Made by a program: the position numbers and the translations under genes. Below the pieces are notes generated by a model. It made no database searches, was not told where the DNA came from, and worked only from the letters and a program-made list of their open reading frames with translations. Shown one piece after another: positions 5,441 through 33,711 of a DNA stretch of 64,000 nucleotides. The stretch is taken from NCBI GenBank assembly GCA_964462685.1, contig CAYWYR010000002.1:68609-132608 (forward strand). The letters run 5' to 3'. The DNA comes from an uncultured Hyphomicrobiales bacterium. GTDB lineage: Bacteria > Bacteroidota > Ignavibacteria > Kapaibacteriales > UBA2268. Position 1 is the stretch's first letter; every line of letters starts with the position of its first letter.

Positions 5441-5518
5441 GCCTGGATCGATCGTGAACCTGCGGGTGCGGGTGCTGCGTTTCGGCTTGCCGGAAGTTTG
5501 GCTTTGGATAATTCAGGT

Positions 5519-6307
5519 TTAAGGGAAAATCCTTGTTTTAGGAAGTGCTGACTTTTTACTTTTAGGGACTTTTAGCTTTCTCTCTATTATATCCTGAAAA
5601 CTATATCCGGAATTGAAAAGCTGCATTTTAAACGCCACTTCTACATATCTGGGCAGTATTTTTTCATATATTAGAAAATATCCTATCATACCAAGCATAA
5701 AGCCACCTATGGGATCCATTATCACATGGAATTTGAGAGCTACTGTACCCCATGAAGCTCCAAGGGTATAAGGCAAGGTTATCCAAAAAGCTATACGCCA
5801 ATGCCTGATCAGAAATAAAGAAAGAACGACCATCGGTACTACATGATAGCTCGGGAAAGCCCCATAAGGCACACTGGATTCATAGAGAGCCTGGACAATA
5901 CCGAACACAGTAGAACTCATTATGGCCGGGTCGTGCTGCATTATCATAACAGGTTCTGCTGTGGTAGGGAAAGCCAGATATATACAGAAACATAATAACA
6001 GCAATACTATATAAGTAATGTATAGGCTGAAAATCTGTTTTACGTTGATCTTTTTATTCAGGCAAAGGAAAAACCCGAGTGCTGGAAAGCACATATACAG
6101 TACATAAGGCAGGTAAAACCAGAAATTGAAGGGTATATATTTATCCAGAGGAGAAACTAAGGCTACAGGTTCCCCAAGATATGCCCCTAACTGCCCTACA
6201 AAAGGGTATAAAGATAGTAGAAAGTAAAGTAAGGTCATAAGTGGAAGGAATGCTATGAGTTTTACTTTGAACCCATAATCTTCAGTATCATGAAAAGCCG
6301 GTCTCAT
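5519..6307 (-). CDS. PAP2-family membrane phosphatase/phosphotransferase (IPC synthase-like)
   Basis: Multiple TM segments; AFPSYHV and KFHVIMDPIGG match the PAP2 C2/C3 motifs. Confidence 0.8.
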   Translation of the reverse strand: MRPAFHDTEDYGFKVKLIAFLPLMTLLYFLLSLYPFVGQLGAYLGEPVALVSPLDKYIPFNFWFYLPYVLYMCFPALGFFLCLNKKINVKQIFSLYITYIVLLLLCFCIYLAFPTTAEPVMIMQHDPAIMSSTVFGIVQALYESSVPYGAFPSYHVVPMVVLSLFLIRHWRIAFWITLPYTLGASWGTVALKFHVIMDPIGGFMLGMIGYFLIYEKILPRYVEVAFKMQLFNSGYSFQDIIERKLKVPKSKKSALPKTRIFP

Positions 6308-6494
6308 TTATTAAATCTTCTGATAGTTTTTTATATCACAAACTATAATATTAGACAGTTTCTTCTGGGTATGATTGTAGTGTATAACCAACGGTTTACA
6401 TCGCCACTATTTATTGAATATATCAAATTATGCTTAATAATAGCCAAGCATATATTTAACCTAAGCTTAACTTTATCTGAACTTATGTCTCTGG

Positions 6495-6502
6495 CAAAAG
6501 TA
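6495..6502 (-). promoter_or_regulatory. Candidate Bacteroidetes-type -7 promoter element TACTTTTG
   Basis: Matches TAnnTTTG, upstream of the PAP2 gene. Confidence 0.4.
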
Positions 6503-6644
6503 ACGAAAACAGTTGTTCCACTTTTATTTAGACGTTTTGCGACTTTTTTTTTCGTCATGTTACATTATAATAACGGTATGAATCGTCATGCTGAAAAACC
6601 ATGTATATTAACACAGTTTTAACATAAACTAAACATTAGGTGAT

Positions 6645-7616
6645 ATGAAAAAAACCCTAGCACTACTGGCGGCATTATCAATGCCATTTTTTATGACATC
6701 ATGCGATGATGATGACGATGATGACAACCCTGTTATAGTAACAGAGACATCGATAACGGATCTGGCTGTAGCGACCCCTGAGCTTTCTACTTTAGTAGCA
6801 GCACTTGAAAGGCTTGAGCTTGATGATGATTTCGATATGGTTGATGGTACAGAATATACTGTATTAGCCCCAACCAATACCGCTTTCCAAGAGCTACTTG
6901 ACAGCAATGAAGACTGGACAACACTAGATGATATCCCGACTGAAACCTTGGAAATGGTTCTAAACTATCATGTTATAGGTGCGGAACTGATGAGTGATGA
7001 TATACAGGAAGGTTCTGGATGGGCTACTACTTCTGCTATGGGCCCAGGTGATAACGGTATTTCACTTTATATCAACCGTACTGGTGAAGTAGTAATGTTT
7101 GACGAAGCAACAGTATCTACAGCTAACGTTGATGCGGACAATGGTGTAGTTCATATTATAGATAAGGTTCTTATGCCTAAGAACTTACTGAATAGAGCTA
7201 TGTCGCTTGATAACTTCTCAACTCTAGTAACTGCAGTTCAGTTCCCAGGGCTTACAACTGATTTTGTAGCTGCACTTGACGGAGACGGACCTCTTACGGT
7301 ATTCGCACCTGATAACGACGCGTTTACAGCCCTACTTGAGAGCAACGAGGCTTGGAATGGTTTAGGTGATATTGGTGCAGAGCTATTAAATAGTGTACTT
7401 CTATATCACGTGGCAAGCGGCAATTTCCAATCATCACAACTAACTGATGGTATGCCTATACCTACATTACTTGATGGCCAGGGTTTAGAGTACAGTGCCG
7501 GTATGAGCACACTTCGCACTACATCCGGAGCCGATGTAATGATCACAGGAACTGACATCCAGACTACAAACGGCGTTATCCATGTAGTAGAAGATGTACT
7601 AGTGCCGGGTTCATAA
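6645..7616 (+). CDS. Fasciclin (2x FAS1) lipoprotein
   Basis: Lipobox MTSC followed by poly-Asp; two repeats of TVLAPTNTAF / TVFAPDNDAF with NGVVHIIDKVL / NGVIHVVEDVL. Confidence 0.92.
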   Translation: MKKTLALLAALSMPFFMTSCDDDDDDDNPVIVTETSITDLAVATPELSTLVAALERLELDDDFDMVDGTEYTVLAPTNTAFQELLDSNEDWTTLDDIPTETLEMVLNYHVIGAELMSDDIQEGSGWATTSAMGPGDNGISLYINRTGEVVMFDEATVSTANVDADNGVVHIIDKVLMPKNLLNRAMSLDNFSTLVTAVQFPGLTTDFVAALDGDGPLTVFAPDNDAFTALLESNEAWNGLGDIGAELLNSVLLYHVASGNFQSSQLTDGMPIPTLLDGQGLEYSAGMSTLRTTSGADVMITGTDIQTTNGVIHVVEDVLVPGS

Positions 7617-7643
7617 TATCCGATAGATATAGATAGGATTATG

Positions 7644-7682
7644 AAAAAAGGGTCAGCCTGTAATTAGGCTGACCCTTTTTTA
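7644..7682. terminator. Intrinsic terminator (bidirectional shape)
   Basis: AAAAAAGGGTCAGCCT-GTAATT-AGGCTGACCC-TTTTTT. Confidence 0.85.
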
Positions 7683-7744
7683 TTGTCTTAATATAAAAAG
7701 AGACGGTTTAAGGAATAAACCTATAGCAATAAGCTTACGGAAAT

Positions 7745-8022
7745 AACCTCTCACCTTTACCACCGTTTGCAATCACCCCGTCTCAATTTTTGGGTACAAG
7801 TACCCTCTCTCTAACACAAACTTAACAATCTTAACCGAATCTTCATATAATATTTTTAATAAAAGATATAATGCTTCGAGTTTGCCAATAGTGTGGAAAA
7901 CGATCCACACAAATATTGAATTATCAATAAATCTTAACAATTAATTCATATTCACTTTACATTAGGCTATTAACTTTGTATTGCTTGATAAAAAAACCTC
8001 TCACCTTTATCACTTCTGCAAT
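7745..8022 (+). repeat. Two copies (7745-7773 and 7995-8022) of AACCTCTCACCTTTAYCAC...TGCAAT
   Basis: 15-nt exact match AACCTCTCACCTTTA plus a shared CAC and TGCAAT. Confidence 0.85.
7934..7978 (+). promoter_or_regulatory. Candidate phoX promoter: 11-bp-spaced TTAACA/TTCATA/TTTACA boxes and a TAACTTTG -7 element
   Basis: Hexamers at 7934, 7945 and 7956; TAACTTTG at 7971-7978. Confidence 0.45.
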
Positions 8023-8162
8023 ACACTGTTTCATATATGAAACAAACTATGCGGATAACCATCTGGCTAAAAATCAAGATAGATTATGTAACCAGATGTG
8101 TGTGAAAAAAGGGAAGCAGAAACAAAACCCTTTATTCATTATCTAATTAGGAGCACTTCGTA

Positions 8163-10052
8163 ATGAAGAAACTCTCTATGGCATTATTAGGGGCGGCCAT
8201 AGCCTCTACTTCGGCAAATGCGTTCGAAGAACAACTAAATATGGAAAACAATACGCTAGAGACTTGGGTACCATCTACAGTTCTAGCTACATCTCCACTA
8301 AAGTACGATGTTATATTCGTAGGTGGAGCAGACATGGTACAGCACACTGCAATCTATGGCGGTGAAGCTGGGATGGCACCTGCTAAGCAGTGGCATGACT
8401 TTATTGGCTTTACTCCTGCCAATGACGACGACAAAGCGAGAATCCCTGGCGTTTACGGTTTCGTTTCTGTAAACCACGAAAGAATCCAGAACCACGACGA
8501 GATCGGTGACGGTGGCGGTATGACTGTATTCGCTGTTGGTAGAACTGACGACGACAGACTAGAAGTACTGGAGCAGACTATTGAGGGTCGCGGAACTGCT
8601 AAGTTTTTCAACGTAGATTTCGTTAACACTGTTGGTGAAACCGGTATGAACTGCGGTGGTATCACTGCACCTGACGGACGTATCTGGACAGCGGAAGAAT
8701 GGTGGCAGTCAAGCCTTGACGGTGCGTTCAGAGACACTGTTGATTTCGTTATCGGTGAGACTACACCAAACGGTTTCCCTGGCTACAATGGTGAGACACT
8801 TGAAAGAGTAGCGAACCTAAACTACATGGTAGAGATCGATCCCCGCTCTGCAGCTGCTGTAAGAAAGCAATACAACTGGGGCCGCCAGCCTTTCGAGGGG
8901 GGAGCGATAACTGACGATATGACAACTGCATACCTTGGCGCTGACGCGACTCCTGGTCTATTTACCAAGTTTGTTGCTGATACACCGGGTGATTTCACTA
9001 GCGGTACTACTTATGTTTACAAGCAGAACCAAGGAAGCTATGCTGGCACTTGGGTAGAAATGGACATGGATAATTTCGATAACGTTCCTAACTTTACACC
9101 AAACGCATTTGCTGTTGGTGGTACTGGATTCAACAGAATCGAGTGGGTAGCTATCGATCCTAACTCCGGACTTGTTTACTTTACAGAAACTGGCCGTGAC
9201 AACCCTGGTAGCAGACTAGAAGGCGCTGTTGAAGCAGGTGGCGACATTGCATACCACCACTATCAGCGTGCTACTGAGCAAGGCTTAGATAGCCCATTTG
9301 ATGGCGATTACTGGGATTACTACGGACGTATCATGGTTTACAACCCTGCAACTAACGAATGTATGCCTTTCCTAGAAGGCGGCCCGTTCTTCGATGTAAA
9401 CAGCAGTAACCATTTCGAAGATGGGAATAACACTGACGGTAGTTTAAACCAAGACTTCCAACCTTATCCTGAAAAGCACCTAACGAACCCTGATGGTCTT
9501 AACTTCCTAAATATCAACGGCAAGTCAATCATGGTAATATGCGAAGACCTTAACGGTACTTCTTACGGCCGAGTTAAGCCGGGTATCGGTAACAGAACTT
9601 GTGAGCTTTTCGTTCTTGATATGGAAAAAGAAGCTACGATAGACAATCTAGTAAGAGTTGGTATTGTTCCTGTAGGAGCAGAAGTAACTGGCGCATGCCC
9701 TACTCCTGATGGCAAAAACCTACTTGTGAACTCTCAGCACCCTGCTACTTACAACGAATATCCTTATAACAACTCACTTACTTTCGTACTTACAGGCTGG
9801 GATGAGTTCATCAACACTAGCGTACAAGAAGAAGGTGTTGTAAACGGCGGTAATGACTTCGGTATCTTCCCTAACCCAACTACAAGAGAGATCAGATTCA
9901 ATGTTGTAACTGATGCAGCTCTTTATGATGTACAGGGTAAGAGACTGAAAGTTGTAACTAACACAGATATGATGGATGTACGTGAATTTGGCCCAGGTAC
10001 TTACTTTGTTAAGAACGCTGCCGGCGACGTTCAGAAGCTTATCATCGAATAA
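8163..10052 (+). CDS. phoX: PhoX-family alkaline phosphatase (DUF839) with T9SS-type C-terminal sorting domain
   Basis: Signal peptide; VNHE, NCGGITAPDGRIWTAEE, GRQPFEG, NPDGL, ICED, GAEVTG and VNSQHP motifs. C-terminal IFPNP...LYDVQGK...GTYFVK...KLIIE. Confidence 0.88.
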   Translation: MKKLSMALLGAAIASTSANAFEEQLNMENNTLETWVPSTVLATSPLKYDVIFVGGADMVQHTAIYGGEAGMAPAKQWHDFIGFTPANDDDKARIPGVYGFVSVNHERIQNHDEIGDGGGMTVFAVGRTDDDRLEVLEQTIEGRGTAKFFNVDFVNTVGETGMNCGGITAPDGRIWTAEEWWQSSLDGAFRDTVDFVIGETTPNGFPGYNGETLERVANLNYMVEIDPRSAAAVRKQYNWGRQPFEGGAITDDMTTAYLGADATPGLFTKFVADTPGDFTSGTTYVYKQNQGSYAGTWVEMDMDNFDNVPNFTPNAFAVGGTGFNRIEWVAIDPNSGLVYFTETGRDNPGSRLEGAVEAGGDIAYHHYQRATEQGLDSPFDGDYWDYYGRIMVYNPATNECMPFLEGGPFFDVNSSNHFEDGNNTDGSLNQDFQPYPEKHLTNPDGLNFLNINGKSIMVICEDLNGTSYGRVKPGIGNRTCELFVLDMEKEATIDNLVRVGIVPVGAEVTGACPTPDGKNLLVNSQHPATYNEYPYNNSLTFVLTGWDEFINTSVQEEGVVNGGNDFGIFPNPTTREIRFNVVTDAALYDVQGKRLKVVTNTDMMDVREFGPGTYFVKNAAGDVQKLIIE

Positions 10053-16690: not shown

Positions 16691-17641
16691 TTACACACAA
16701 CCATTACTTGGGAGAGTGAACTTGAAAGAGCTTCCCTCTCCCATCTTGCTCTCAACCCAGATATTACCGCCGTGTTTTTCGATGAATTCTTTACATACAA
16801 CCAAACCCAGGCCACTGCCTGTCTCTCTGTTTGTACCTTTAGTCTGTACTTTGCTGCCTATATTGAAGAGTTTTTTGGCGTGCTCTTCTTTTATACCAAC
16901 GCCGTTGTCAGTAACACATATCTCTGTGGAGGAATCTTTTTCGGTTGAGCGGATATTGATCCTTCCGCCCTCAGCCGTAAACTTGATAGCATTGGATATA
17001 AGATTCCGCAATACTGTTTCTATCATATTTTCATCACACCAAACGAAGCACTCCGGGTCTATATCCAGATCAATGGCTATGTTTTTGTTATCTGCCTGAA
17101 CTTTAAGCAGAGTGTATATATTTTTGGTAAGTATCAGTAGATTAATCGATGATGGTAAATACTCGATAGTACCAGATTGAGTCTGTGACCACCTGTGAAG
17201 GTTTTCAAATAAATTAAACAAAGAATCAACTGCTTTGTTAATCTTGCTCAGCTTTATATGCAGCTCTTCCTTACTCATTTTATCGAGATGGTTTTTCAGC
17301 AAGTCTGTCATCATAAGTACAGACGCGATCGGATTGCGGAGATCATGCGATATTATCGAGAAAAATTTATCCTTAGTAGCGTTTAGCTTAATTAGCTCTT
17401 CGTTTTTAGCGAATACCTCACCTGAGGTAAGCTCTAACTTTTCTTGCATTTTAAGGAGCTTTCTCTGGCTGTTATCACTTACCTTGGTAAGTTTGTTGGA
17501 TTGTTTGAGCAGATTCTGATATGCTGTAAGGAGATTACCGTAGTCTTCTGAACTGATATTGCCAGACTCAAGAACCGATTTGGATCTTTCCACGGTCTTT
17601 AATTCTTGGCTGAATATTGGATTGATGTCTGAAATAACCAT
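16691..17641 (-). CDS. Cytoplasmic histidine kinase with SiaD-like N-terminal coiled coil
   Basis: H-box SIISHDLRNP, N-box RNLISNAIKF, DNGVG and GSGLGL; no TM segments. Confidence 0.9.
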   Translation of the reverse strand: MVISDINPIFSQELKTVERSKSVLESGNISSEDYGNLLTAYQNLLKQSNKLTKVSDNSQRKLLKMQEKLELTSGEVFAKNEELIKLNATKDKFFSIISHDLRNPIASVLMMTDLLKNHLDKMSKEELHIKLSKINKAVDSLFNLFENLHRWSQTQSGTIEYLPSSINLLILTKNIYTLLKVQADNKNIAIDLDIDPECFVWCDENMIETVLRNLISNAIKFTAEGGRINIRSTEKDSSTEICVTDNGVGIKEEHAKKLFNIGSKVQTKGTNRETGSGLGLVVCKEFIEKHGGNIWVESKMGEGSSFKFTLPSNGCV

Positions 17642-17656
17642 AAATCAGAAACTATA

Positions 17657-18043
17657 TTAATATGCTATAAGCTGAAATGGGATACTCAGGCCTTCGGCGA
17701 ACTCTTCCCCACTTTCCTCAATATCCTCATCATCTTCTTCATAGTACCAATTGACCTGAATCTTCTGTCCTTGGCCATGGTATTTTTCAAGCAAATCTAA
17801 GATATCTAATATAGACTTGGATGAGCTGGTATTGAAATAATTAAGCCTAAAATTAAAATGGATTTCCTTGGAATTGTCGGTCATTTCGAAATAACCTTCA
17901 AGCCAAGCCATGATAGGTTCGTAAAATTCGACTGAGTTTTCTGGATAAGACTCCCCCTGAATTTCCATAAGGCCCTCTTCAGGTAAGAAAAGAATCTTGG
18001 GTTTAGTTTTTTGGGGGTCTATACTTAGTTTATCAAACCTCAA
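17657..18043 (-). CDS. siaC: SiaC family (DUF1987) protein
   Basis: GESYPEN, YFNTSSSK (phospho-acceptor Thr motif) and WYYEEDDEDIEESGEEF. Confidence 0.9.
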   Translation of the reverse strand: MRFDKLSIDPQKTKPKILFLPEEGLMEIQGESYPENSVEFYEPIMAWLEGYFEMTDNSKEIHFNFRLNYFNTSSSKSILDILDLLEKYHGQGQKIQVNWYYEEDDEDIEESGEEFAEGLSIPFQLIAY

Positions 18044-18593
18044 GAAGAGCCTCCTTGTTAAAATATGTTGACATTACCATGAAAACCTTGTTATCATCAA
18101 GAGGTACAGTGTAACAATCTACCTCACCTGAAGATTTGCGAGCTATCTCAATAAGGCCGAGACCAGCACCATTACTATTGTCTGGCCTAGGCATCCTTAT
18201 AGCTTCGTTATAATATTTTTTCAGTTCAGATCGATCCATCAAGTTCAGTTTTTCGACCTTTTCTTTAATAGTCCTGCCTGATTCTTCTTTTGCTATATTA
18301 CCAGATGTGACTATGTATTTGTCAGTAGTCTCATGGAAGAGCACGATTCCGACACCGTAGTCTTTACCCGAGACAGGATCGAGTTCACGTTCTTCGGAGT
18401 AATGCATAATATTCTGAGATAACTCAACAAAGACAGAAAAAATTTTCTTAGTCCATTTTTGAGTTTCACTTCTGGCTTTGATAATCTCACCTATATCAAT
18501 AAGAATCTGTTGAGATATGGTACCTTTGAAAGACAAAATTATTTTTTTGTCCTTGGCATTCTCGTAAAAGTCGTAAAGATCGAAATCCAACAT
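18033..18593 (-). CDS. siaB: SiaB family (DUF6272) protein kinase
   Basis: FSVFVELSQNIMHYS, GNI and GAGLGLIEIARKS motifs. Confidence 0.88.
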   Translation of the reverse strand: MLDFDLYDFYENAKDKKIILSFKGTISQQILIDIGEIIKARSETQKWTKKIFSVFVELSQNIMHYSEERELDPVSGKDYGVGIVLFHETTDKYIVTSGNIAKEESGRTIKEKVEKLNLMDRSELKKYYNEAIRMPRPDNSNGAGLGLIEIARKSSGEVDCYTVPLDDNKVFMVMSTYFNKEALLEV

Positions 18594-18682
18594 AATCTGA
18601 TTTTATTCTAAAATAGACTTAAAAGATACCCTGTAAAGATAATGATTCAATAGAAACAACATAATTAATCTTATCGTTCGTT

Positions 18683-20059
18683 TTGGTATCTAAAACTACT
18701 ATACGAATATACCGCAGTATTATGACAATAGAAGACACTAAAAAAAGACTTTCGGCTATTGAAGAGCAGTTGGTTGATCTTAAAGGCAAGCAATCTCAGC
18801 TAATGGCTAAATGGAGTATTGAAAAAAACAGTATAGCCAAGATACGGTCTATAAAATCACAAATAGATGAGCTGAAAACCGCGGCGGAAAGATATGAACG
18901 TGAAGGTATGCTTGAGAAGGTGGCGGAAATCAGGTATGGCCGTATCCATCAGCTTGAGGCTGATCTGCAATTAGCCAATGACAAGCTACAGGATCTACAA
19001 GAAGGATCAAAACTTCTGAATGAAGAAGTAAACTCCGAGGATATAGCCCATATAGTTGCTAAAGCTACAGGCATACCAGTATCTAAGATGATGGAGACTG
19101 AAAGATCGAAGCTTGTTACAATGGAGGATAAGCTTAAAGATAGGGTCGTTGGTCAGGATCATGCCGCCATTGCCATATCAAATGCAATCAGAAGAAGCCG
19201 TGCCGGCATGCAAGACGAAAACCGCCCAATAGGTTCCTTTGTTTTTTTAGGAACAACAGGGGTTGGAAAAACGGAAATGGCAAAATCACTGGCATCTTTC
19301 CTATTTGATGATGAAAAAGCAATGGTCAGGATCGATATGAGTGAATATAGCGAGAAATTCGCTGTTTCGAGACTTATAGGCGCACCGCCTGGATATGTAG
19401 GTTATGACCAAGGCGGGCAGCTGACCGATACAGTTAGGCAAAGGCCATACGCAGTAATACTCTTGGATGAAATAGAAAAGGCGCATCCTGAGATATTCAA
19501 TATACTCCTCCAGGTTCTGGATGACGGGAGACTGACCGATAGCCGCGGAAGAACAGTAGACTTTACGAACACCATCATCATAATGACGTCAAATATCGGT
19601 ACCGATATAATACAAAAGAGAATGACTGAAATCACCCACGAAAATAAATCAGTTATTATGGGTGAGATCAAAGATCAGGTTATGGGTCAAGTAAAAGGGT
19701 TTATGCGTCCGGAATTTCTCAATAGAATTGATGAGATCATACTTTTCAACCCATTGGATGAGGTTCAGATACAGAGTATCGCGAGTATTCAATTACAAAG
19801 ACTTGAGGCCAGGATTCTCAAGAACAACGAGATCGAACTTGAATTATCTAACGAAGCTCTGGAATGGTTATCCAAGATAGGGTATGATCCTACTTATGGT
19901 GCGAGACCCTTAAAGAGAGCTATTCAAAAGCATATCATTGATGAACTATCGATGAAGTTTCTCTCAGGCGATATAGCTAAGGGCGATAAAGTAAAGGTAC
20001 ATGCTGATGAAAACGGAAGTTTTACATTTACTACGTTAAAAAGTAACGAGAGCATATAA
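18683..20059 (+). pseudogene. clpB: N-terminally truncated ClpB (part of the M-domain, NBD2 and C-terminal domain); probable ATG at 18722
   Basis: KVAEIRYG (M-domain), GTTGVGKT, APPGYVGY, LLDEIEKAH, RPEFLNRIDE and YGARPLKR. No N-domain or NBD1 coding sequence upstream in the frames I read. Confidence 0.8.
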
Positions 20060-20135: not shown

Positions 20136-21917
20136 ATGCTCGATAAAAGCCTAATATATCTCTGGACTTTTTTTATCCTGACAGTTTCTGTTACTCTTTC
20201 TGGTTGCGGATCAAGCAAGAATATTACAGCTGATAATTTTCAGGGTTCCAGTAAAATCTCAAAAGGAGATACGGCAACGATAAGTTGGTATTTTAAGAAT
20301 GCTGACAGAACACTGTTTGAAGGTATAAATAAAGATCCTCAGGATTCAATTAAAGTAGCTCCCGAATTTACGACAGACTATAGAATAGATGCGATATCCG
20401 ATAATGACACACTATCGGTTATATGGAAAGTCGAAGTTGAAAACGAAATTGAATCTATACCGAATAGCGATATAAATAATTTTTCATCACAAAGCTTTAG
20501 TGAATCGGAATATCTTATCGGTGTGGATGATTCAGATATTTCGGAGGCCGATATATTAAATCAGTTAAGCAAGCTAAAAGTACTTGCTCATAAATATGAA
20601 GAAGATAAACTACATTTAAATTTAGCATTACTAGATAGATACGGAAATCAGTTGACAGAAATTTTGACTGGTGATCCTAAATTATCATTGACTCTGAAAT
20701 GCAGTGATAATATAAGAGAGCTACCATTAATCAGTATCGATAATTATTTACTCAGCGATGAGATTCCCATTGATATTCTTATAGATGACAGCGGGGATGA
20801 CAGTAAATTAGAATCACTCATAGATCGCATAATAAAGTCGATAAATACTTTAAATATAAATAACGAAGTAAATATATCTTTCCTGAGTAAGAATGATACC
20901 TACAATAATGATAATATTAATATCCCGATAGACTATAATCTCAATAATTCGTATTCTAAGCTATTTAATAAATCTATTGAAAAAGAGAAGCTACTTATTT
21001 ATATAAACAGTACCAACGATAACTCATCGCTTATTTACACGCCTAAAGATATTGTTCTGGCTGCAAAAGATAAAGGTACATCCATTTATATACTTCAATC
21101 AGGTAACGAGGCAGACCCGATGCCTTTGAGATATATTTCCTCAAATACAGCAGGCACTTACTATAATATCGATTCTGATATAAATGATATATTAAAAGAG
21201 ATAGTTCTGGGACGAAAGTATGGAATAAATGCTGTCTTTAATACTGATAATTTGAGTGAGTATCCATGTGATGGAAGATTAACTCTAAACGTTGAAATAG
21301 ACAATTCAGAATTCACAACGTTTTATAATCTTTTAGATGATTCACCGAATCTAATGTCTTCTGATCAGATCTTAGCCCTTTTTGAAAAGAATTCGATAAG
21401 ATACTTATCGGATTATTCTGATAATATCAAAAGATTAGCTGAGACATTAAAAGATAATCCAGGTTATAAGATACAGCTTCTCGGCCACTCTGGTGTCGAG
21501 ACTTCTCAAAACAATATCGCATTAGAAAGAGCAAAGAGTATAAAAGATAAGTTGATCTTGAATGGTATTGATTCTGATCGCATCAATATAAGGGATATGG
21601 GCAACAGTAAACCGATGTACCCATTAGAATCATCGGCTTATCAATCAGCTTATAATAGAAGAGTAGAGGTTAGATGGATTACTCCGCTGACATTCCCGTA
21701 TGAGATCCATGTAGAAAGTGCAGACTCAGAAAATATAGCTTTAGAAAAGTCTTTAAAATGGGAGGATAGAGGATATAGAGTGTATTATGATAGATACATG
21801 GAATCAGGTATTCCATATTACAAAGTTTTGCTATGGGGCTACAGAACAGAAAAAGAGGCTTTAGAGGCTAGCGCAAGGATAAATGACAATTATGGATTGC
21901 TTTCTAAGGTTTTTTAA
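20136..21917 (+). CDS. Lipoprotein with vWA-like, OmpA-like and C-terminal SPOR-like domains
   Basis: Lipobox LSGC; DILIDDSG; IQLLGH...ALERAKSIK...MGNSKP...NRRVEV. The last ~70 aa resemble SPOR (inference). Confidence 0.7.
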   Translation: MLDKSLIYLWTFFILTVSVTLSGCGSSKNITADNFQGSSKISKGDTATISWYFKNADRTLFEGINKDPQDSIKVAPEFTTDYRIDAISDNDTLSVIWKVEVENEIESIPNSDINNFSSQSFSESEYLIGVDDSDISEADILNQLSKLKVLAHKYEEDKLHLNLALLDRYGNQLTEILTGDPKLSLTLKCSDNIRELPLISIDNYLLSDEIPIDILIDDSGDDSKLESLIDRIIKSINTLNINNEVNISFLSKNDTYNNDNINIPIDYNLNNSYSKLFNKSIEKEKLLIYINSTNDNSSLIYTPKDIVLAAKDKGTSIYILQSGNEADPMPLRYISSNTAGTYYNIDSDINDILKEIVLGRKYGINAVFNTDNLSEYPCDGRLTLNVEIDNSEFTTFYNLLDDSPNLMSSDQILALFEKNSIRYLSDYSDNIKRLAETLKDNPGYKIQLLGHSGVETSQNNIALERAKSIKDKLILNGIDSDRINIRDMGNSKPMYPLESSAYQSAYNRRVEVRWITPLTFPYEIHVESADSENIALEKSLKWEDRGYRVYYDRYMESGIPYYKVLLWGYRTEKEALEASARINDNYGLLSKVF

Positions 21918-23613
21918 TAGGGCTGTGAATTGGCAAAGATATATTCATTTGTTTTTTGCCATTATTGATGCTTTTATAGTTGATTTTACCACTCAACAGC
22001 TTTAGGGAGTAATTAAAAAGATTATAGTTAGAGTTTCCGCGCATATAAATATTCATTGGGTCAGATTTGAGATTGTCAGATACAAATTCTAATATTATAG
22101 AGTCATCACTCATTTTAATATTGATATCTATCTTAGAATTATTTTGTGTTAGTAAATAATTCAGTAAACTTCTTATTAGTACAGTGTAAATCTGCTGATT
22201 GATCCTTACATTCTGATTATTGATATCACATGAGATATTAACTTCTCTGTCTTTTAACTCGTGTTTTAGAATATGTTGATTTATTAAATGTATATCTGAA
22301 ATATATCGTTTATCATCGTATCTCTCAATAGTACTAAGATCTAAAATAGTTGTAATATAACCTATGGATTTATTGTATATCTTATCATATTTAATGAAAG
22401 AATCATCAATTATTGATGGATTCGATACTTTTATAAGTTCATATATAGTGATGATATTAAGTAAGGAATCACGAATACCAGCATTAATATTAGCTATTTC
22501 TGATAAAATATCTAGATGAGCGTTGTCACCGTGGTCCCTATTTTCATATATTATATCATTTACTCTTTTCTTATAAATATCTAGATTTTTCTCTAATGTC
22601 TCTATAGTTTTGGATTTATTTATTTGAAGCTTATCTATTTCAGTTTTATAATTATCAGTAATTGTACTGACAAATGATATGTCGATAAATGTTTCAACTA
22701 TTATTTCCTTGAAAGGAAGTTTCACGATACTTGAGTTTCTGATCACAGATATCTTTCTACCGCCCTTTGTAATAAGTGTGCTCGGAAGCTGGCCAAAAGA
22801 AACTGTATATGAGTCAAATATATCATTTAAAAAAACATCTTTCTCAATATCAATAGGTTTATAGTTTGATAGTTCTTCTGCAAAAGGGTTGACATTAATA
22901 ATTTTTTTACTATTGCGATCAGCCAATACTATTCCAGCTTGCACAGTGTCTATAATAGCTGAAAGCTGTCTTTTACTATTGTGTAGTTCTACGGTATTCG
23001 CTTTTATTATCTGATCTTGCTCCTTTACGATATTGCTGTTGGCTTTCTTGAGTTTTACAGATAATAAATCAGCTGCACTGATATCACAGAAATTCTGTAT
23101 TGCCTCCAATAGTGTGATATCTGTTTTTTCCTTGGATACTAAAATCAAAATCCCGTAGAAACCCTCTATAGTAATCAATGGTAATACGGAAACAAATAAT
23201 TCTTCATTGCTATCTGGATGATGAATTACATCTTCTCTGTATGATTTAGTTCTGAGAATCTCTTTTAAAATGTTTTTCTGTTCTATAATGTCATAGATTT
23301 TTTTTATATCTCCAATGTGTTCAATAGGCTCAACTGTATTTTGTACAAAATTAAAGTTGGTATTTAGAGTATATAAACCCAGATATTTTGTATGGTTTAT
23401 AGCAAGAAGAGATAATTGTATTTTCTTTTTAAGGCTGTAATTACTGTCTAGTTCGTTCCGAAATGAAATTAAATTATTTGAAATCTGTATAGAAGATAAT
23501 CCATCGATTTCGATTTTGGAATTTAATTTATCATCGATTCCTTGGTGTACCAAATCAGCTTTCAGACCTTCTAAGTCTAAATCTTCTAAATAGTCTGATA
23601 TATTGATATCCAT
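21904..23613 (-). CDS. PAS-domain protein with degenerate kinase-like C-terminus
   Basis: GIVLADRNSKKIINVNPFAEELSNY is PAS-like. The C-terminal region has HisKA/HATPase-like layout but no clear H/N/G boxes. Confidence 0.5.
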   Translation of the reverse strand: MDINISDYLEDLDLEGLKADLVHQGIDDKLNSKIEIDGLSSIQISNNLISFRNELDSNYSLKKKIQLSLLAINHTKYLGLYTLNTNFNFVQNTVEPIEHIGDIKKIYDIIEQKNILKEILRTKSYREDVIHHPDSNEELFVSVLPLITIEGFYGILILVSKEKTDITLLEAIQNFCDISAADLLSVKLKKANSNIVKEQDQIIKANTVELHNSKRQLSAIIDTVQAGIVLADRNSKKIINVNPFAEELSNYKPIDIEKDVFLNDIFDSYTVSFGQLPSTLITKGGRKISVIRNSSIVKLPFKEIIVETFIDISFVSTITDNYKTEIDKLQINKSKTIETLEKNLDIYKKRVNDIIYENRDHGDNAHLDILSEIANINAGIRDSLLNIITIYELIKVSNPSIIDDSFIKYDKIYNKSIGYITTILDLSTIERYDDKRYISDIHLINQHILKHELKDREVNISCDINNQNVRINQQIYTVLIRSLLNYLLTQNNSKIDINIKMSDDSIILEFVSDNLKSDPMNIYMRGNSNYNLFNYSLKLLSGKINYKSINNGKKQMNISLPIHSPIKKP

Positions 23614-23615
23614 AC

Positions 23616-24476
23616 TTATCTCAAAAGTATATTAATTGCATGGTCTATTTCTTTTTCAAATATTGGTTGGTTCTCTGTAAAAAAATCATTTTCGATTTTT
23701 AATTTTTTCCATATATCTTTATTTAGTTTGGGTATGATATTATCACCAGCATCGCCTATTCCTGTCATATAGGAATATACAAAGGCCAAATGAACAGTAG
23801 CTGACAAATCCTGATATCTACCCTCTGGATATCCGTTATAAAGAGAATCAAACATTTTTTTTAGAGGTATTGGTAACTTCCATTTTTTAGCAATGTAGCC
23901 GGCGATAGTGCTATGGTTCATCCCTATTACTTTATTTTCGATTTGCACTAATGATATGTTGTTCTCTTTTGCATGGCTAATTAATTGAAGATAAAGCTCT
24001 GGCACGGTTTTTATGAATAACAGTTTACCTATACCGTGGATAATCCCACCAATCAGATATTCTTCAATATTTTTTTTGCCTCGGTTCCTTGCTATGTTTC
24101 TTGCCACTACACCTACGCTGAAAGAGAACTTCCAAAAATCGGGTAAAGAAATAGCATCTGCGGATTTCAGTTCTTTGAACTGGTTGATAATCGAAAGAGC
24201 TAATACTATTGACTTTGTCTCTTGAAATCCGATACTTACTACAGCCTGCTGTACTGATGTTATTTTCCCTACAAAACCATACATGGCGGAATTAGCCACA
24301 CGAAGTACTTTTAAAGCTGATGATTGATCCTGTGAGATAATATCACCGATTTGTTTAGCACTGGAAAGCGGGTTTGCTATAGCATCGCTAAGCTGTGAGT
24401 AAACTGTCGGAAGAGTCGGAAAGTCATCTATTTTGGCTATGATATTCTGACAGAGTTTTTTCTGCTTATCTGTCAC
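23616..24476 (-). CDS. HDOD domain protein
   Basis: FPTLP, ISQDQSSALKVLRVANSAMYG, SVQQAVVSIG, IHGIGKL and NHSTIAGYIAKKWKLP. Confidence 0.92.
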   Translation of the reverse strand: MTDKQKKLCQNIIAKIDDFPTLPTVYSQLSDAIANPLSSAKQIGDIISQDQSSALKVLRVANSAMYGFVGKITSVQQAVVSIGFQETKSIVLALSIINQFKELKSADAISLPDFWKFSFSVGVVARNIARNRGKKNIEEYLIGGIIHGIGKLLFIKTVPELYLQLISHAKENNISLVQIENKVIGMNHSTIAGYIAKKWKLPIPLKKMFDSLYNGYPEGRYQDLSATVHLAFVYSYMTGIGDAGDNIIPKLNKDIWKKLKIENDFFTENQPIFEKEIDHAINILLR

Positions 24477-28579: not shown

Positions 28580-29662
28580 ATGGCTACTGAAACAGAAAGT
28601 AAACGCTTGGAATTACTGGAATCCCGGTTGGAATGGTACAAGGCTATATTCGATAACGCAACGGACGCTTTTTTTATCGTACAGCCGGACAGCTGGGAAA
28701 TCCTCGATATAAATGAGTTTGGTTCCCAACTTTTGGGTTACACAAAGGATGATATCATCGGCTCTCGCCTTCCTCAGTTCAAGCGTATTTTCAAGTTGCT
28801 TAAGAAAAGCTCGTCTCCTATAGTTTTAAGCGAACTTTCCTTAGACAGGCATGAAGATGGCGAGCCATTAATGCTTGAAGTGTCAGCCAGATTCCTTGAT
28901 ATTGACGGTAGTGAAGTTATATATGCGATTGCCCGCGACGTATCTGAACAGCACGCCTTAACCGATAAAATGGTTCAGGCCGATAAACTTGTGCTTCTTG
29001 GCCAGCTTTCCGCTGGTGTAGCACATGAACTGAGAAATCCTTTAGCTGCCGTAAATCTCAACCTTCAGGTTTTGAAAAGGAAGATGGATAATGAAAGTGC
29101 TGAGTTCAGTTATGTTGATATGGCTTTGCAGGGTGTCGAACGAATATCGAAGATTGTTGACGTAACCCTTAATTTTTCCAGACCGGCAATGCCTGATGTA
29201 CAGAATATCGATATAAACCAACTGATTCCAAATGTACTGGAACTTACAAGAAGCAATATCAAGAGAAAAGATGTAACGATTGACCTTGATCTTGATCCGG
29301 AACTTCCAACTGTAAATGCAGACGGTAAGCAGATTCAGCAGGTATTTATAAATCTGATCACAAATGCGCTGGATGCCATAGAGACCAAAGGTAGAATTGA
29401 TATACAGACATTCAGAGAGGATGGGCAAAAAAGTAACGAAGGCAGCTATGTAGTCGTTTCTGTTAAAGACGACGGGATCGGTATGCCACCGGAAGAGTTG
29501 ACTAAGATCTTCAATCCATTCTTCACACGAAAATCAGAAGGCACAGGTCTGGGATTACCTATTACCCAAAGGATACTTCATCAGCACAACGGAATAATTG
29601 ACGTTGAGAGCCAAAAAGGCAAAGGTACTACCTTTTATGTAAAACTTCCGATAACCCTTTAA
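28580..29662 (+). CDS. PAS-domain NtrB-type histidine kinase
   Basis: PAS N-terminus; GVAHELRNPL, QVFINLITNALDA, DDGIG and GTGLGL. Confidence 0.93.
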   Translation: MATETESKRLELLESRLEWYKAIFDNATDAFFIVQPDSWEILDINEFGSQLLGYTKDDIIGSRLPQFKRIFKLLKKSSSPIVLSELSLDRHEDGEPLMLEVSARFLDIDGSEVIYAIARDVSEQHALTDKMVQADKLVLLGQLSAGVAHELRNPLAAVNLNLQVLKRKMDNESAEFSYVDMALQGVERISKIVDVTLNFSRPAMPDVQNIDINQLIPNVLELTRSNIKRKDVTIDLDLDPELPTVNADGKQIQQVFINLITNALDAIETKGRIDIQTFREDGQKSNEGSYVVVSVKDDGIGMPPEELTKIFNPFFTRKSEGTGLGLPITQRILHQHNGIIDVESQKGKGTTFYVKLPITL

Positions 29663-29824
29663 GTATGCGAAATACTTATTGGTTGAATCTGATTATTGTT
29701 TTTTTGATTCAATAATCTATCACTGATAATATTATCCCCAGTAGCTGTAAAATTAGATTAGATACAGCAAATTGTTTATTTTTAGCCATAAATAAAACAT
29801 GAGAATATCATAAGTAATTCCGAG

Positions 29825-31261: not shown

Positions 31262-31279
31262 CATTTAGGACACATCGTT

Positions 31280-32113
31280 ATGACGAACGACGAATTTGCT
31301 CAGGTATCATCTAAAATTAAAGATCTTACGGGGATTTTCTTTCCGGAATCAAAAAAATATTTAGTAGAAAGCCGTATCGACAGAAGAATAAAGGAAGTAA
31401 ACGACCCTTCCAAATTCACCAATCCTATTGAATATATGAAATATGTCAGTAGGAATACAGATAAAAATGAGTTGGAATGTTTTTATAACATGGTAACAAT
31501 AAACGAGACTTTTTTCTTTAGATCCCCTCAGCAGTTCGATACGATAGAGAACTATCTGCTCCCTGAGATTATACAGAAAAAGCCTGGCTATTCAAAAAAA
31601 TTAAATATCTGGAGTGCTGCTTCTTCCAGTGGTGAGGAAATCTATACCTTAGCAATGATACTGAAAGAGGGTTTATTGAAAAATGATAATACCGTCAATG
31701 TATCGCTTCGTGCTAGCGACTTGGATATGAACACAATTGAAAAAGCTAAAAACGGCATCTATAAAAAATATTCAATACGCAATATGCCTCCCAAGTTTTT
31801 CAGTAAATATTTTAAACAAAAAGCCGATGAATACATATTGAGCGAAGAAATTATCAAAATGGTATCTTTTCAACAAGTCAATCTAAGCCGTAATTCCCAC
31901 TATCAGGTATATAGAGGCTGCGATATAATAATGCTTGCCAATGTTCTGATATATTTTGATCAAATGACTAAAGAGAAGGTTTTAGCCAATATTTTCTCCT
32001 GCCTGACAAGTGGAGGGTATTTGCTAATCGGTTATTCTGAGTCTCTACAAGGTATCAAACATAACTTCGAGACTTTTCATATCAACAAAACGATAGTATA
32101 CAAAAAACCATAA
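31280..32113 (+). CDS. cheR: Chemotaxis methyltransferase CheR
   Basis: TINETFFFR, IWSAASSSGEEIYTLAM, NVLIYFD and GGYLLIGYSES. Confidence 0.92.
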   Translation: MTNDEFAQVSSKIKDLTGIFFPESKKYLVESRIDRRIKEVNDPSKFTNPIEYMKYVSRNTDKNELECFYNMVTINETFFFRSPQQFDTIENYLLPEIIQKKPGYSKKLNIWSAASSSGEEIYTLAMILKEGLLKNDNTVNVSLRASDLDMNTIEKAKNGIYKKYSIRNMPPKFFSKYFKQKADEYILSEEIIKMVSFQQVNLSRNSHYQVYRGCDIIMLANVLIYFDQMTKEKVLANIFSCLTSGGYLLIGYSESLQGIKHNFETFHINKTIVYKKP

Positions 32114-32125
32114 GCGGGTAATTTA

Positions 32126-33708: not shown

Positions 33709-33711
33709 TAG

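What the first reader, a model, noticed from the sequence alone, without database searches (positions are those of the whole stretch)
16691..18593. Sia signalling module rewired to a histidine kinase output
Seen: siaB-siaC followed by a soluble kinase whose N-terminus (YGNLLTAYQNLLKQSNKLTKVSDNSQRKL) resembles, from memory, the RISD-type coiled-coil stalk of SiaD. Known: in Pseudomonas SiaABCD, SiaC binds the SiaD stalk to activate a GGDEF cyclase, SiaB phosphorylates SiaC and SiaA dephosphorylates it. Inference: a partner-switch that controls His-phosphorelay instead of c-di-GMP. No siaA phosphatase or cognate regulator is adjacent.
Basis: partly seen in the sequence, partly recalled or inferred. 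Interest (0 to 1): 0.62.

Follow-up and report, generated by a model that had tools for sequence, protein, structure and literature searches.

The report
SiaB–SiaC phospho-switch wired to histidine kinase
A three-gene operon joins the SiaB/SiaC threonine-phosphorylation switch, known from Pseudomonas for controlling a c-di-GMP cyclase, to a soluble histidine kinase that carries the same SiaC-docking helix as that cyclase, and this docking helix turns out to be a portable plug found on many kinds of signalling enzyme.

Summary
On the minus strand, 16691-18593 holds siaB (186 aa), siaC (128 aa, phospho-Thr72 conserved) and a 316-aa soluble HisKA histidine kinase. The genes overlap or lie 15 nt apart, and metatranscriptome contigs cross both junctions.

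- Kinase residues ~8-69 form a conserved N-terminal module. Its core, KLTKVSDNSQRKLLK, aligns with the proximal SiaC-binding motif of P. aeruginosa SiaD (KVARISDRYQQMMRD). Ser, Asp and Gln sit at the positions that contact SiaC Thr68.
- In 705 kb of siaC loci the module is found only next to siaC. It gave no hit in 826 kb of control kinase loci.
- It is fused to histidine kinases, hybrid kinases, GGDEF, class III cyclases, SpoIIE phosphatases, a Hanks kinase and small membrane proteins.
- In 19 of 19 direct stalk-kinase fusions the motif-to-His distance is 43, 36 or 29 residues, which keeps one heptad register. AlphaFold2 predicts one helix over residues 32-121.
- Two SiaC-stalk salt-bridge pairs show charge swaps across lineages.

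No SiaA phosphatase or cognate response regulator is adjacent here. Relatives do have SpoIIE-siaB-siaC-kinase operons.

Verdict: a new variant of a known kind, apparently not described in the literature searched. The direction of regulation and the downstream regulator remain unknown.

The parts
18033..18593 (-). siaB-family protein kinase gene (186 aa)
   Evidence: NF038262 SiaB_fam_kinase 171.6 bits (cutoff 85); DUF6272 5.1e-38; PDB 6KKO_A 4.8e-20. The motifs shared with P. aeruginosa SiaB, ELSQNI (residue 57) and GAGLGL (residue 142), are retained.
17657..18043 (-). siaC-family regulatory phosphoprotein gene (128 aa, TTG start, overlaps the siaB stop by 11 nt)
   Evidence: PF09345 9.3e-45; PDB 6KKO_C/7E6G 1.7e-23. 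The start aligns with the Met of homologues.
17828..17830 (-). codon of SiaC Thr72, equivalent to the phospho-acceptor Thr68 of P. aeruginosa SiaC, within YFNTSSSK
   Evidence: Invariant in an 18-sequence alignment that includes the PDB sequence; codon checked; role of Thr68 from PMC8457831.
16691..17641 (-). soluble HisKA-type histidine kinase gene (316 aa)
   Evidence: HisKA at residues 90-156 and HATPase_c at 203-312; H, N, G1 and G2 boxes present and no transmembrane segment.
17435..17620 (-). N-terminal SiaC-receiver module of the kinase (residues 8-69): short helix, loop, then the start of the long stalk helix
   Evidence: Matches the N-termini of proteins encoded next to siaC that carry unrelated output domains. 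No Pfam or NCBIfam model covers it.
17450..17494 (-). core SiaC-binding motif KLTKVSDNSQRKLLK (residues 50-64)
   Evidence: Aligned by HMMER and hhalign to the SiaD proximal motif K77-D91, KVARISDRYQQMMRD. D56 is invariant and Q59 nearly invariant in the family.
17345..17347 (-). codon of the phospho-acceptor His99, 43 residues after motif Asp56
   Evidence: The Asp-to-His spacing is 43, 36 or 29 (always 1 mod 7) in 19 of 19 direct stalk-kinase fusions. AlphaFold2 predicts a continuous helix over residues 32-121.
17174..17374 (-). HisKA (DHp) domain, residues 90-156
   Evidence: Pfam PF00512 4.7e-10.
16706..17035 (-). HATPase_c catalytic domain, residues 203-312
   Evidence: Pfam PF02518 4.1e-27.
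18594..18682 (.). 89-bp AT-rich divergent intergenic region, the presumed promoter region of the operon
   Evidence: It is the only non-coding gap upstream of siaB. One weak sigma-70-like match lies on the - strand at 18637-18610, which is no more than the shuffles give. Function inferred only.

Best explanation
siaB-siaC-kinase is one operon that encodes a partner-switch whose output is a histidine kinase.

The kinase is a soluble dimeric HisKA enzyme. Its only 'sensor' is an N-terminal helical stalk that runs without a break into the DHp helix carrying His99. The stalk carries one copy of the SiaC-docking motif, h-x-x-K-L-T-K/R-[VI]-[SG]-D-x-x-Q-R/K-K-L, which is homologous to the two motifs on the stalk of the P. 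aeruginosa diguanylate cyclase SiaD.

The proposed mechanism is as follows. Unphosphorylated SiaC docks on the paired stalk helices, two SiaC per kinase dimer, with Thr72 inserted between them against Ser55 and Gln59. This clamps the coiled coil. The change is passed down a register-locked helix of about six heptads to the DHp/CA core and switches autokinase output. By analogy with SiaD, activation is the more likely direction. SiaB phosphorylates SiaC Thr72, which blocks docking and resets the kinase. A PP2C/SpoIIE phosphatase encoded elsewhere would dephosphorylate SiaC and supply the input. The phosphoryl group then goes to an unidentified orphan response regulator.

Shown here: the gene identities, their arrangement, module homology and linkage, the spacing rule, and in situ RNA. 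Inferred: SiaC-kinase binding, the direction of the effect, the stoichiometry, and the identity of the phosphatase and the regulator.
For: 1. Gene identities are secure: SiaB family, SiaC family with the conserved phospho-Thr, and a catalytically complete HisKA kinase.

2. The three-gene cassette is conserved in Kapaibacteria-like genomes. Only the three genes, not their neighbours, are kept in L001, L085, L165 and L166.

3. Kinase residues 8-90 match the N-termini of the proteins encoded directly after siaC in other phyla, whatever their output: GAF plus guanylate/adenylate cyclase, GGDEF, SpoIIE, or membrane-anchored 184-aa proteins.

4. An HMM of the module then found sequences it was not trained on. 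These include a second kinase lineage in Chloracidobacterium (L091, 1.4e-23), a PAS kinase in Opitutales (L100), and cyclases (L096, L097, L157).

5. Specificity: the HMM hit 15 of 80 siaC-centred loci (705 kb), always beside siaC. It gave no hit at E<=10 in 826 kb of control kinase loci from similar taxa, and hit only this kinase in the 64-kb window.

6. An exhaustive phmmer search of 1.84 billion representatives with residues 1-92, which was blind to gene context, gave 24 hits. Of these, 23 pass the module HMM and 12 are histidine kinases. All 4 true hits whose context was looked up lie directly after siaB-siaC; the one false positive (a TPR protein) does not.

7. Link to SiaD: the module profile finds 7E6G_A at E=0.073, and hhalign gives E 3.1e-5 at 73% probability. 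Both align S55/D56/Q59 with SiaD S82/D83/Q86, the published SiaC Thr68 contacts (PMC8457831).

8. Covariation at two published salt bridges. For SiaC R103 with SiaD D91, this clade has Asp in SiaC and Lys/Arg in most stalks (17 of the 24 tabulated), including the window's D107/K64. For SiaC D79 with SiaD R74, the Bacteroidia membrane-protein group has Arg in SiaC and Asp/Glu in the stalk.

9. The motif-Asp to phospho-His spacing is 43 (16 sequences), 36 (2) or 29 (1), always 1 mod 7. AlphaFold2 with a 10-sequence alignment (mean pLDDT 78) predicts a single helix over residues 32-121, with pLDDT 83-88 over residues 31-80.

10. Metatranscriptome contigs from the same microbial mat cover siaB and cross both the siaB/siaC junction (17905-18116) and the siaC/kinase junction (17468-17702).
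Against: No binding or activity data exist for any SiaC-kinase pair.

The direct sequence link to SiaD is weak. E is 0.073 among coiled-coil noise, the kinase N-terminus alone does not retrieve SiaD, and the region is a low-complexity, coiled-coil-like helix.

The covariation rests on few independent events.

The kinase has one motif where SiaD has two. SiaD activation involves a pentamer-to-dimer change that has no obvious counterpart in a kinase that is always a dimer.

No phosphatase or response regulator is nearby, so neither input nor output is defined.

The RNA evidence comes from low-depth, unstranded contigs, and DNA carry-over cannot be excluded.

About 65 of the 80 siaC loci, mostly Bacteroidia, show no detectable stalk protein nearby, so SiaC can have other or distal targets.
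Confidence: 0.72

Rival explanations
1. The complex is the same but the direction is reversed. SiaC docking rigidifies the coiled coil and locks the kinase in a kinase-off or phosphatase state, so phosphorylation of SiaC by SiaB turns the phosphorelay on.
For: All the evidence for docking applies equally. From established knowledge of histidine kinases such as DesK, a stabilised N-terminal two-helix coiled coil can favour the phosphatase state. The kinase is already a dimer, so the dimerisation route by which SiaD is activated (PMC8457831) need not carry over.
Against: In the only studied case, SiaD, unphosphorylated SiaC is an activator (PMC8457831). The same module is fused to enzymes that need dimerisation (GGDEF, class III cyclases), which points to one common 'clamp means on' logic.
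Confidence: 0.22
2. The kinase N-terminus is an ordinary dimerising coiled coil (signalling helix). SiaB and SiaC merely share an operon with it and act on a distal target. The likeness to SiaD is coiled-coil noise.
For: The pairwise similarity to SiaD is marginal (E 0.073, ranked beside designed coiled coils). The kinase N-terminus alone hits spectrin repeats, not SiaD. Most Bacteroidia siaBC loci lack an adjacent stalk protein.
Against: The module gave no hit at E<=10 in 826 kb of loci holding related kinases, yet it lies next to siaC in every positive case, including four chosen blind to context. The invariant and near-invariant positions (Y41, D56, Q59) include polar residues that a generic coiled coil would not require. 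The module is shared across seven unrelated output types. Charge swaps occur at the published interface pairs.
Confidence: 0.05
3. The kinase is an input or a sink, not the output. Its stalk sequesters unphosphorylated SiaC away from another target such as a distal cyclase, or the kinase feeds back on SiaB or SiaC.
For: Some loci encode one SiaC with two stalk proteins: GGDEF plus a kinase in L091, and SpoIIE plus a cyclase in L157. SiaC is therefore shared among partners there and competition is possible. No response regulator is adjacent in the window.
Against: In the window and its eight closest cassettes the kinase is the only stalk protein. The strict heptad register between the motif and His99 argues for coupling to catalysis, not mere sequestration. 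Hybrid versions carry REC and Hpt domains downstream, as expected of an output phosphorelay.
Confidence: 0.05

Closest known systems
SiaABCD of Pseudomonas aeruginosa (PA0172-PA0169; structures 6KKO, 6KKP, 7E6G)
   Same: It has a SiaB-family kinase and a SiaC (DUF1987) phosphoprotein with the same NTSS phospho-Thr loop. The output enzyme carries an N-terminal helical stalk with the [VI]-S-D-x-x-Q SiaC-docking motif. The genes are co-transcribed.; PMC8457831.
   Different: Here the output is a HisKA histidine kinase, not a GGDEF cyclase. There is one docking motif instead of two. No SiaA (TM-HAMP-PP2C) gene is adjacent. SiaB and SiaC score below NCBI's equivalog cutoffs (114 against 225, and 117 against 150). 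SiaC position 103 and stalk position +8 carry swapped charges. The host is a Kapaibacteria-like bacterium from a microbial mat, not a gammaproteobacterium.
Small regulators that bind soluble or cytoplasmic parts of histidine kinases: PII (GlnB)-NtrB; Sda and KipI-KinA; FixT-FixL (from general knowledge)
   Same: A small protein binds the kinase and sets its kinase or phosphatase output. For PII the binding state is set by a reversible covalent modification.
   Different: Those regulators bind the DHp or CA domains, not a dedicated N-terminal docking helix. None is a DUF1987/STAS-like protein controlled by a dedicated Ser/Thr kinase.
STAS-type partner switches with non-sigma outputs: HsbR/HsbA-HsbD, BgrSTUWV-BgrR (both diguanylate cyclases), and the Vibrio vulnificus stressosome locus next to two-component genes (PMC8457831 discussion; PMC9237108)
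   Same: A phosphorylatable small protein, its kinase and a PP2C phosphatase control a signalling enzyme rather than a sigma factor. In Vibrio the genetic link to a sensor kinase has been noted.
   Different: The protein families differ (STAS/RsbW against DUF1987/DUF6272). For Vibrio no docking site is defined, and the RsbT-D1 interaction could not be shown (PMC9237108). Here a specific, conserved docking motif is identified on the kinase.
Signalling-helix (S-helix) coiled-coil linkers of sensor kinases and cyclases (from general knowledge)
   Same: A continuous parallel coiled coil feeds into the DHp, and linker length varies in heptad steps.
   Different: Here the coiled coil is not driven by an attached sensor domain. 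It appears to be read by a separate, phospho-regulated protein acting in trans.

Membership tests
SiaB family protein kinase (NCBIfam NF038262 / Pfam DUF6272) | Score above the curated family cutoff | tested here: met
   171.6 bits against a cutoff of 85; DUF6272 130.2 bits against 26.6.
SiaB family protein kinase (NCBIfam NF038262 / Pfam DUF6272) | Equivalog of P. aeruginosa SiaB (NF038264) | tested here: not met
   114.2 bits against a cutoff of 225. It is a family member, not the same-function equivalog by NCBI's criterion.
SiaB family protein kinase (NCBIfam NF038262 / Pfam DUF6272) | Motifs shared with the solved SiaB (E-x-x-Q-N-I and G-A-G-L-G-L, read from general knowledge as Bergerat-type N-box-like and glycine-rich ATP-lid-like elements) | tested here: met
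   ELSQNI at residue 57 and GAGLGL at residue 142, both aligned to 6KKO_A. Kinase activity itself is not testable here.
SiaC family regulatory phosphoprotein (Pfam PF09345, DUF1987) | Full-length domain match above the cutoff | tested here: met
   151.6 bits against 24.5, covering residues 8-128; 39% identity to the SiaC sequence of the PDB entries.
SiaC family regulatory phosphoprotein (Pfam PF09345, DUF1987) | Phospho-acceptor Thr (P. aeruginosa T68) within the Y-x-N-T-S-S loop | tested here: met
   Y69-F-N71-T72-S73-S74; Y69, N71, T72, S73 and S74 are invariant in 18 sequences.
SiaC family regulatory phosphoprotein (Pfam PF09345, DUF1987) | Equivalog of P. aeruginosa SiaC (NF038265) | tested here: not met
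   117 bits against a cutoff of 150.
SiaABCD-type system | Adjacent SiaA PP2C phosphatase | tested here: not met
   No SpoIIE/PP2C domain among the neighbours. It is present in the related cassettes L169, L171, L173 and L168.
SiaABCD-type system | GGDEF diguanylate cyclase as the output (SiaD) | tested here: not met
   The downstream gene is HisKA plus HATPase_c, with no GGDEF domain.
SiaABCD-type system | Output protein carries the SiaC-binding stalk motif, with Ser and Gln contacting SiaC Thr68 | tested here: met
   Kinase V54-S55-D56-N-S-Q59 aligns with SiaD I81-S82-D83-R-Y-Q86. The pairwise statistics are marginal (E 0.073; hhalign 3.1e-5) but are backed by family-wide linkage to siaC.
SiaABCD-type system | Unphosphorylated SiaC binds and activates the output; SiaB phosphorylation releases it | not testable with these tools
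   This needs biochemistry.
HisKA-type two-component histidine kinase | H-box His, N, G1 and G2 boxes; HisKA and HATPase_c domains | tested here: met
   H99 (HDLRNP), N-box at 213, DNGVGI at 245, GSGLGL at 275; Pfam above cutoffs.
HisKA-type two-component histidine kinase | Cognate response regulator | tested here: inconclusive
   None is adjacent. The three receiver proteins in the window sit with other kinases. The rest of the genome is not available.

The most novel reading that the evidence does not exclude
The roughly 60-residue 'SiaC-receiver stalk' is a portable docking module. It lets one Thr-phospho-switch (a variable PP2C sensor, SiaB and SiaC) plug into at least seven output classes across many phyla: HisKA kinases, hybrid kinases with REC and Hpt, GGDEF cyclases, class III nucleotide cyclases, SpoIIE phosphatases, Hanks Ser/Thr kinases and small membrane-anchored proteins. 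In kinases it replaces the sensor domain altogether, giving a direct, register-locked bridge from Ser/Thr phosphorylation to His-Asp phosphorelay. That would make SiaBC a general signalling adaptor system comparable in scope to STAS partner switches, rather than a Pseudomonas c-di-GMP speciality.
Probability: 0.6. Interest if true: 0.75.

Novelty: new variant of a known kind. Interest (0 to 1): 0.64.

Why it matters
SiaABCD has been studied only as a Pseudomonas biofilm and c-di-GMP pathway. Its authors proposed, without examples, that DUF1987 proteins regulate adjacent proteins (PMC8457831).

This locus and its relatives give that idea a concrete form. They supply a defined docking motif, a spacing rule, and a list of output enzymes that includes histidine kinases with no sensor domain of their own.

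That would explain how some 'sensorless' soluble kinases receive input. It links Ser/Thr phosphorylation to His-Asp signalling by a simple physical mechanism. It also offers a compact, modular switch (SiaB, SiaC and a 60-residue tag) that could be tested and reused in synthetic signalling.

The hypothesis can be tested directly with three small soluble proteins.

Tried and rejected
1. phmmer of kinase residues 1-104 against PDB sequences found only spectrin repeats and coiled coils, not SiaD. A single sequence is too weak; the profile was needed.

2. The search for homologous proteins with the N-terminal 92 aa gave nothing. With the 21-sequence module alignment it gave one 90-aa fragment. The word index does not suit this short helical module.

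No GTDB-wide census of the module was therefore possible.

4. The search for related loci with the whole kinase returned 79 loci, 78 of them generic kinases without siaBC. I reused these as the negative control.

5. AlphaFold2 on the kinase as a single sequence gave pLDDT 37.9 and was uninformative. The 10-sequence alignment gave a usable model.

6. I considered a read-through SiaC-kinase fusion as a stand-in for a multimer prediction. I dropped it because there are two in-frame stops, no paired alignment is allowed, and the tool reports no interface measure.

7. I considered that the D2-only ClpB gene next door was a fragment left by insertion of the operon. I rejected this because it is intact and conserved at 67-77% identity in three relatives.

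8. I considered the half-ClpB, OmpA, PAS and HDOD neighbours as parts of the system. I rejected this because they are syntenic only in the closest relatives and absent from L001, L085, L165 and L166.

9. The promoter and terminator scan gave no more sites than the shuffles.

10. Literature searches for DUF1987, DUF6272, SiaB-like or SiaC-like proteins, and SiaC with histidine kinase found no description of a SiaBC-kinase system.
Full report
**What is there**

The minus strand of 16691-18593 is filled by three tightly packed ORFs.

- The first, 18033-18593 (186 aa), is a SiaB-family kinase. It scores 171.6 bits on NCBIfam NF038262 against a cutoff of 85, 5.1e-38 on Pfam DUF6272, and 4.8e-20 against the solved SiaB, 6KKO_A. 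The ELSQNI and GAGLGL motifs it shares with P. aeruginosa SiaB are kept.
- The second, 17657-18043 (128 aa, TTG start, overlapping the siaB stop by 11 nt), is a SiaC/DUF1987 protein. It scores 9.3e-45 on PF09345 and 1.7e-23 against SiaC of 6KKO/7E6G. The loop Y-F-N-T72-S-S that carries the phospho-acceptor Thr is conserved, with all but the Phe invariant in 18 homologues.
- The third, 16691-17641 (316 aa, beginning 15 nt after siaC), is a HisKA/HATPase_c histidine kinase. It has H99, N, G1 and G2 boxes and no transmembrane segment.

There is no PP2C/SpoIIE gene and no receiver-domain gene among the neighbours. The receiver proteins elsewhere in the window belong to a PAS-kinase/NtrC pair and to a che cluster.

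**Source and expression**

The closest relatives are uncultured Kapaibacteria. SiaC is 62% identical to that of a Kapaibacteriales MAG, and the kinase is 48% identical to that of a Candidatus Kapaibacterium MAG.

The sequence occurs in runs from a microbial mat. A metatranscriptome from the same sample has contigs on siaB and contigs that cross the siaB/siaC junction (17905-18116) and the siaC/kinase junction (17468-17702). None falls on the divergent neighbour. This fits one expressed transcript. The contigs are shallow and unstranded, and DNA carry-over cannot be excluded.

**Is the cassette conserved?**

Yes. siaB-siaC-kinase (316-330 aa) recurs in L080-L084 with the same neighbours. It also recurs in L001, L085, L165 and L166 with different neighbours. 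The conserved unit is therefore the three genes, not the surrounding locus.

**The key result: a shared N-terminal module**

I fetched 80 siaC-centred loci from GTDB species representatives. siaB lies nearby in 76 of them.

A phmmer search of the window kinase against the proteins encoded just after siaC matched their N-terminal ~90 residues only, whatever the C-terminal domain. Pfam shows those proteins to be:

- GAF plus guanylate/adenylate cyclase in Leptospiraceae;
- GGDEF, as in SiaD;
- SpoIIE phosphatase in Thiomargarita;
- 183-188-aa proteins with C-terminal hydrophobic (putative transmembrane) segments and no Pfam domain in Bacteroidia.

The shared pattern is a short helix (F-x-x-E), a loop, and then Y-x-x-L-L-x-Q-x-x-K-L-T-+-[VI]-[SG]-D-x-x-Q-+-K-L. 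No Pfam or NCBIfam model covers it.

An HMM of the module then found members it had not been trained on:

- a 347-aa histidine kinase in Chloracidobacterium (L091, 1.4e-23), in a locus that also has a stalk-GGDEF protein;
- a PAS kinase in Opitutales (L100);
- further cyclases (L096, L097, L157);
- the L165 and L166 kinases, and a Desulfobulbaceae SpoIIE protein (L168).

**Specificity controls**

The HMM hit 15 of the 80 siaC loci (705 kb), and always a gene beside siaC. It gave no hit even at E<=10 in 826 kb of control loci, namely 78 loci centred on related kinases from the same phyla. In the 64-kb window it hit only this kinase.

As a test blind to gene context, I searched 1.84 billion cluster representatives exhaustively with kinase residues 1-92. 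That gave 24 hits at E<=1e-3, of which 23 pass the module HMM. The hits comprise:

- 12 histidine kinases, three with receiver domains and one with Hpt;
- 2 SpoIIE phosphatases;
- 1 GAF protein;
- 1 Hanks-type Ser/Thr kinase;
- short proteins or fragments.

I looked up the genomic context of four true hits, and all four lie directly after siaB-siaC:

- L169: siaB-siaC-kinase-REC, followed by PAS-SpoIIE;
- L170: siaB-siaC-stalk-HATPase-REC;
- L171: SpoIIE-siaB-siaC-PAS-kinase-REC-Hpt;
- L173: SpoIIE-siaB-siaC-Hanks kinase.

The single false positive, a TPR protein, has no siaBC nearby. L171 is the exact four-gene analogue of siaABCD with a kinase in place of SiaD.

**Link to the SiaD stalk**

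The kinase N-terminus on its own did not retrieve SiaD. The module profile did retrieve 7E6G_A, at E=0.073. hhalign of the 21-sequence profile against SiaD residues 28-101 gave E 3.1e-5 at 73% probability.

Both alignments place kinase K50-L-T-K-V-S55-D56-N-S-Q59-R-K-L-L-K64 on SiaD K77-V-A-R-I-S82-D83-R-Y-Q86-Q-M-M-R-D91. In the 7E6G structure SiaC Thr68 inserts between the two stalk helices and hydrogen-bonds S82 and Q86. D83, K77, V78, R80 and I81 are also contacts (PMC8457831). The kinase has one such motif; SiaD has two (S50/Q54 and S82/Q86).

**Covariation at the interface**

I tabulated the published contact positions in 22 SiaC/stalk pairs.

- The SiaC R103 - SiaD D91 salt bridge is reversed in this clade. 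SiaC has Asp in all 22 pairs (D107 in the window), and the stalk position is Lys or Arg in 17 of the 24 stalks (K64 in the window).
- The SiaC D79 - SiaD R74 bridge is reversed in the Bacteroidia membrane-protein group, where SiaC has Arg and the stalk has Asp or Glu.

These are few independent events. They do fall exactly at the pairs named in the crystal structure.

**Coupling to catalysis**

In every kinase where the stalk runs straight into the DHp, the distance from the motif Asp to the phospho-acceptor His is 43 residues (16 sequences, including the distant Chloracidobacterium kinase), 36 (2 sequences) or 29 (1 sequence). It is always 1 mod 7. The two indels are exactly one and two heptads.

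AlphaFold2 with a 10-sequence family alignment (mean pLDDT 78) predicts one unbroken helix over residues 32-121. That helix contains the motif, the linker and His99, and is preceded by a helix at residues 8-25. The single-sequence run was uninformative.

A register-locked helix between docking site and active site is what a signalling coiled coil requires.

**Mechanism proposed**

Unphosphorylated SiaC clamps the paired stalk helices of the kinase dimer at residues ~47-64, and this sets the autokinase state through the coiled coil. SiaB phosphorylates Thr72 and releases SiaC. A PP2C phosphatase encoded elsewhere reverses this and carries the input. An orphan response regulator receives the output.

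- Shown: gene identities, operon structure, module homology and linkage to siaC, the spacing rule, and in situ RNA.
- Inferred: binding, the 2:2 stoichiometry, the direction of the effect, and the partners.

The direction is the weakest point. Activation is favoured by analogy with SiaD and by the same module being fused to cyclases that need dimerisation. But a kinase is already a dimer, and in some kinases a stabilised coiled coil favours the phosphatase state.

**Comparison with what is known, and novelty**

The system works like SiaABCD but is not a member in the strict sense. The GGDEF output and the adjacent SiaA are absent, and SiaB and SiaC fall below NCBI's equivalog cutoffs.

The literature library holds one paper that mentions DUF1987. 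It proposes only in general terms that DUF1987 proteins modulate adjacent proteins (PMC8457831). No paper describing SiaBC linked to a histidine kinase, or the portable stalk module, was found.

The nearest conceptual precedents are PII-NtrB and Sda/KipI-KinA, which are small regulators of soluble kinases, and STAS partner switches with enzyme outputs. The latter include the Vibrio stressosome locus beside two-component genes, where no interaction could be shown (PMC9237108).

I rate this a new variant of a known kind. It is of moderate to high interest because it generalises the Sia switch and gives a sharply testable model for how sensorless kinases are controlled.

Noticed in passing
window 18683-20059 (+): A 'half ClpB' gene lies divergent from siaB. 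It has only the D2 AAA+ module and the D2-small domain, matching ClpB residues 430-848, with no N-domain or D1. It is intact and conserved (436-443 aa, 67-77% identity) at the same place in three relatives, so it is a real gene and not a truncation.
   Followed up: partly
window 20136-24476: This is a low-GC stretch (29-33% against about 40% elsewhere). It holds a 593-aa OmpA-domain protein, a 569-aa PAS_8 protein with no recognised output domain, and an HDOD protein directly upstream of the PAS protein on the same strand.
   Followed up: no
window 28580-36755: A PAS histidine kinase with an NtrC-type sigma-54 activator is followed by a che cluster: CheR, CheY, a 402-aa protein with no Pfam match, CheA and CheB.
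   Followed up: partly
L116, L123, L133, L142, L149, L162, L164 (about 5400-8570 in each): In seven Bacteroidales genomes siaB-siaC is followed by a large protein of 1017-1048 aa. The one scanned (L116) is a TerB + ABC_tran + ABC2_membrane fusion, and L162 looks the same by eye. None has a detectable SiaC-receiver stalk. It may be a different kind of SiaC target or only a neighbour.
   Followed up: partly
L093:5386-5952, L094:434-985, L095:5312-5866, L105:912-1466: These are small proteins of 183-188 aa made of the SiaC-receiver stalk plus hydrophobic C-terminal segments that look like transmembrane helices (read by eye from the sequences) and no enzymatic domain. Their SiaC and stalk carry a swapped charge pair at the D79-R74 contact.
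   Followed up: partly
L091:5001-7929 and L157:1901-5060: One siaC sits with two stalk-bearing outputs in the same locus. In Chloracidobacterium these are a GGDEF protein and a histidine kinase. In Thiomargarita they are a SpoIIE phosphatase and a 555-aa cyclase. This suggests branched output from a single switch.
   Followed up: partly
L173:3001-4275 (P0137): The SiaC-receiver stalk is fused to a Hanks-type Ser/Thr protein kinase, in an operon SpoIIE (1131 aa)-siaB-siaC-kinase.
   Followed up: partly
window 17456-17560 (kinase residues 28-62): The segment ISSEDYGNLLTAYQNLLKQ gives repeated weak hits to the start of spectrin repeats (1U4Q_A, 1.1e-06 for the whole sequence, each stretch insignificant). 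I judged this a chance helical similarity.
   Followed up: no
window 17420-17561: The DNA and RNA contigs from the mat carry a few single-base variants within the kinase stalk region, which indicates co-existing strains.
   Followed up: no
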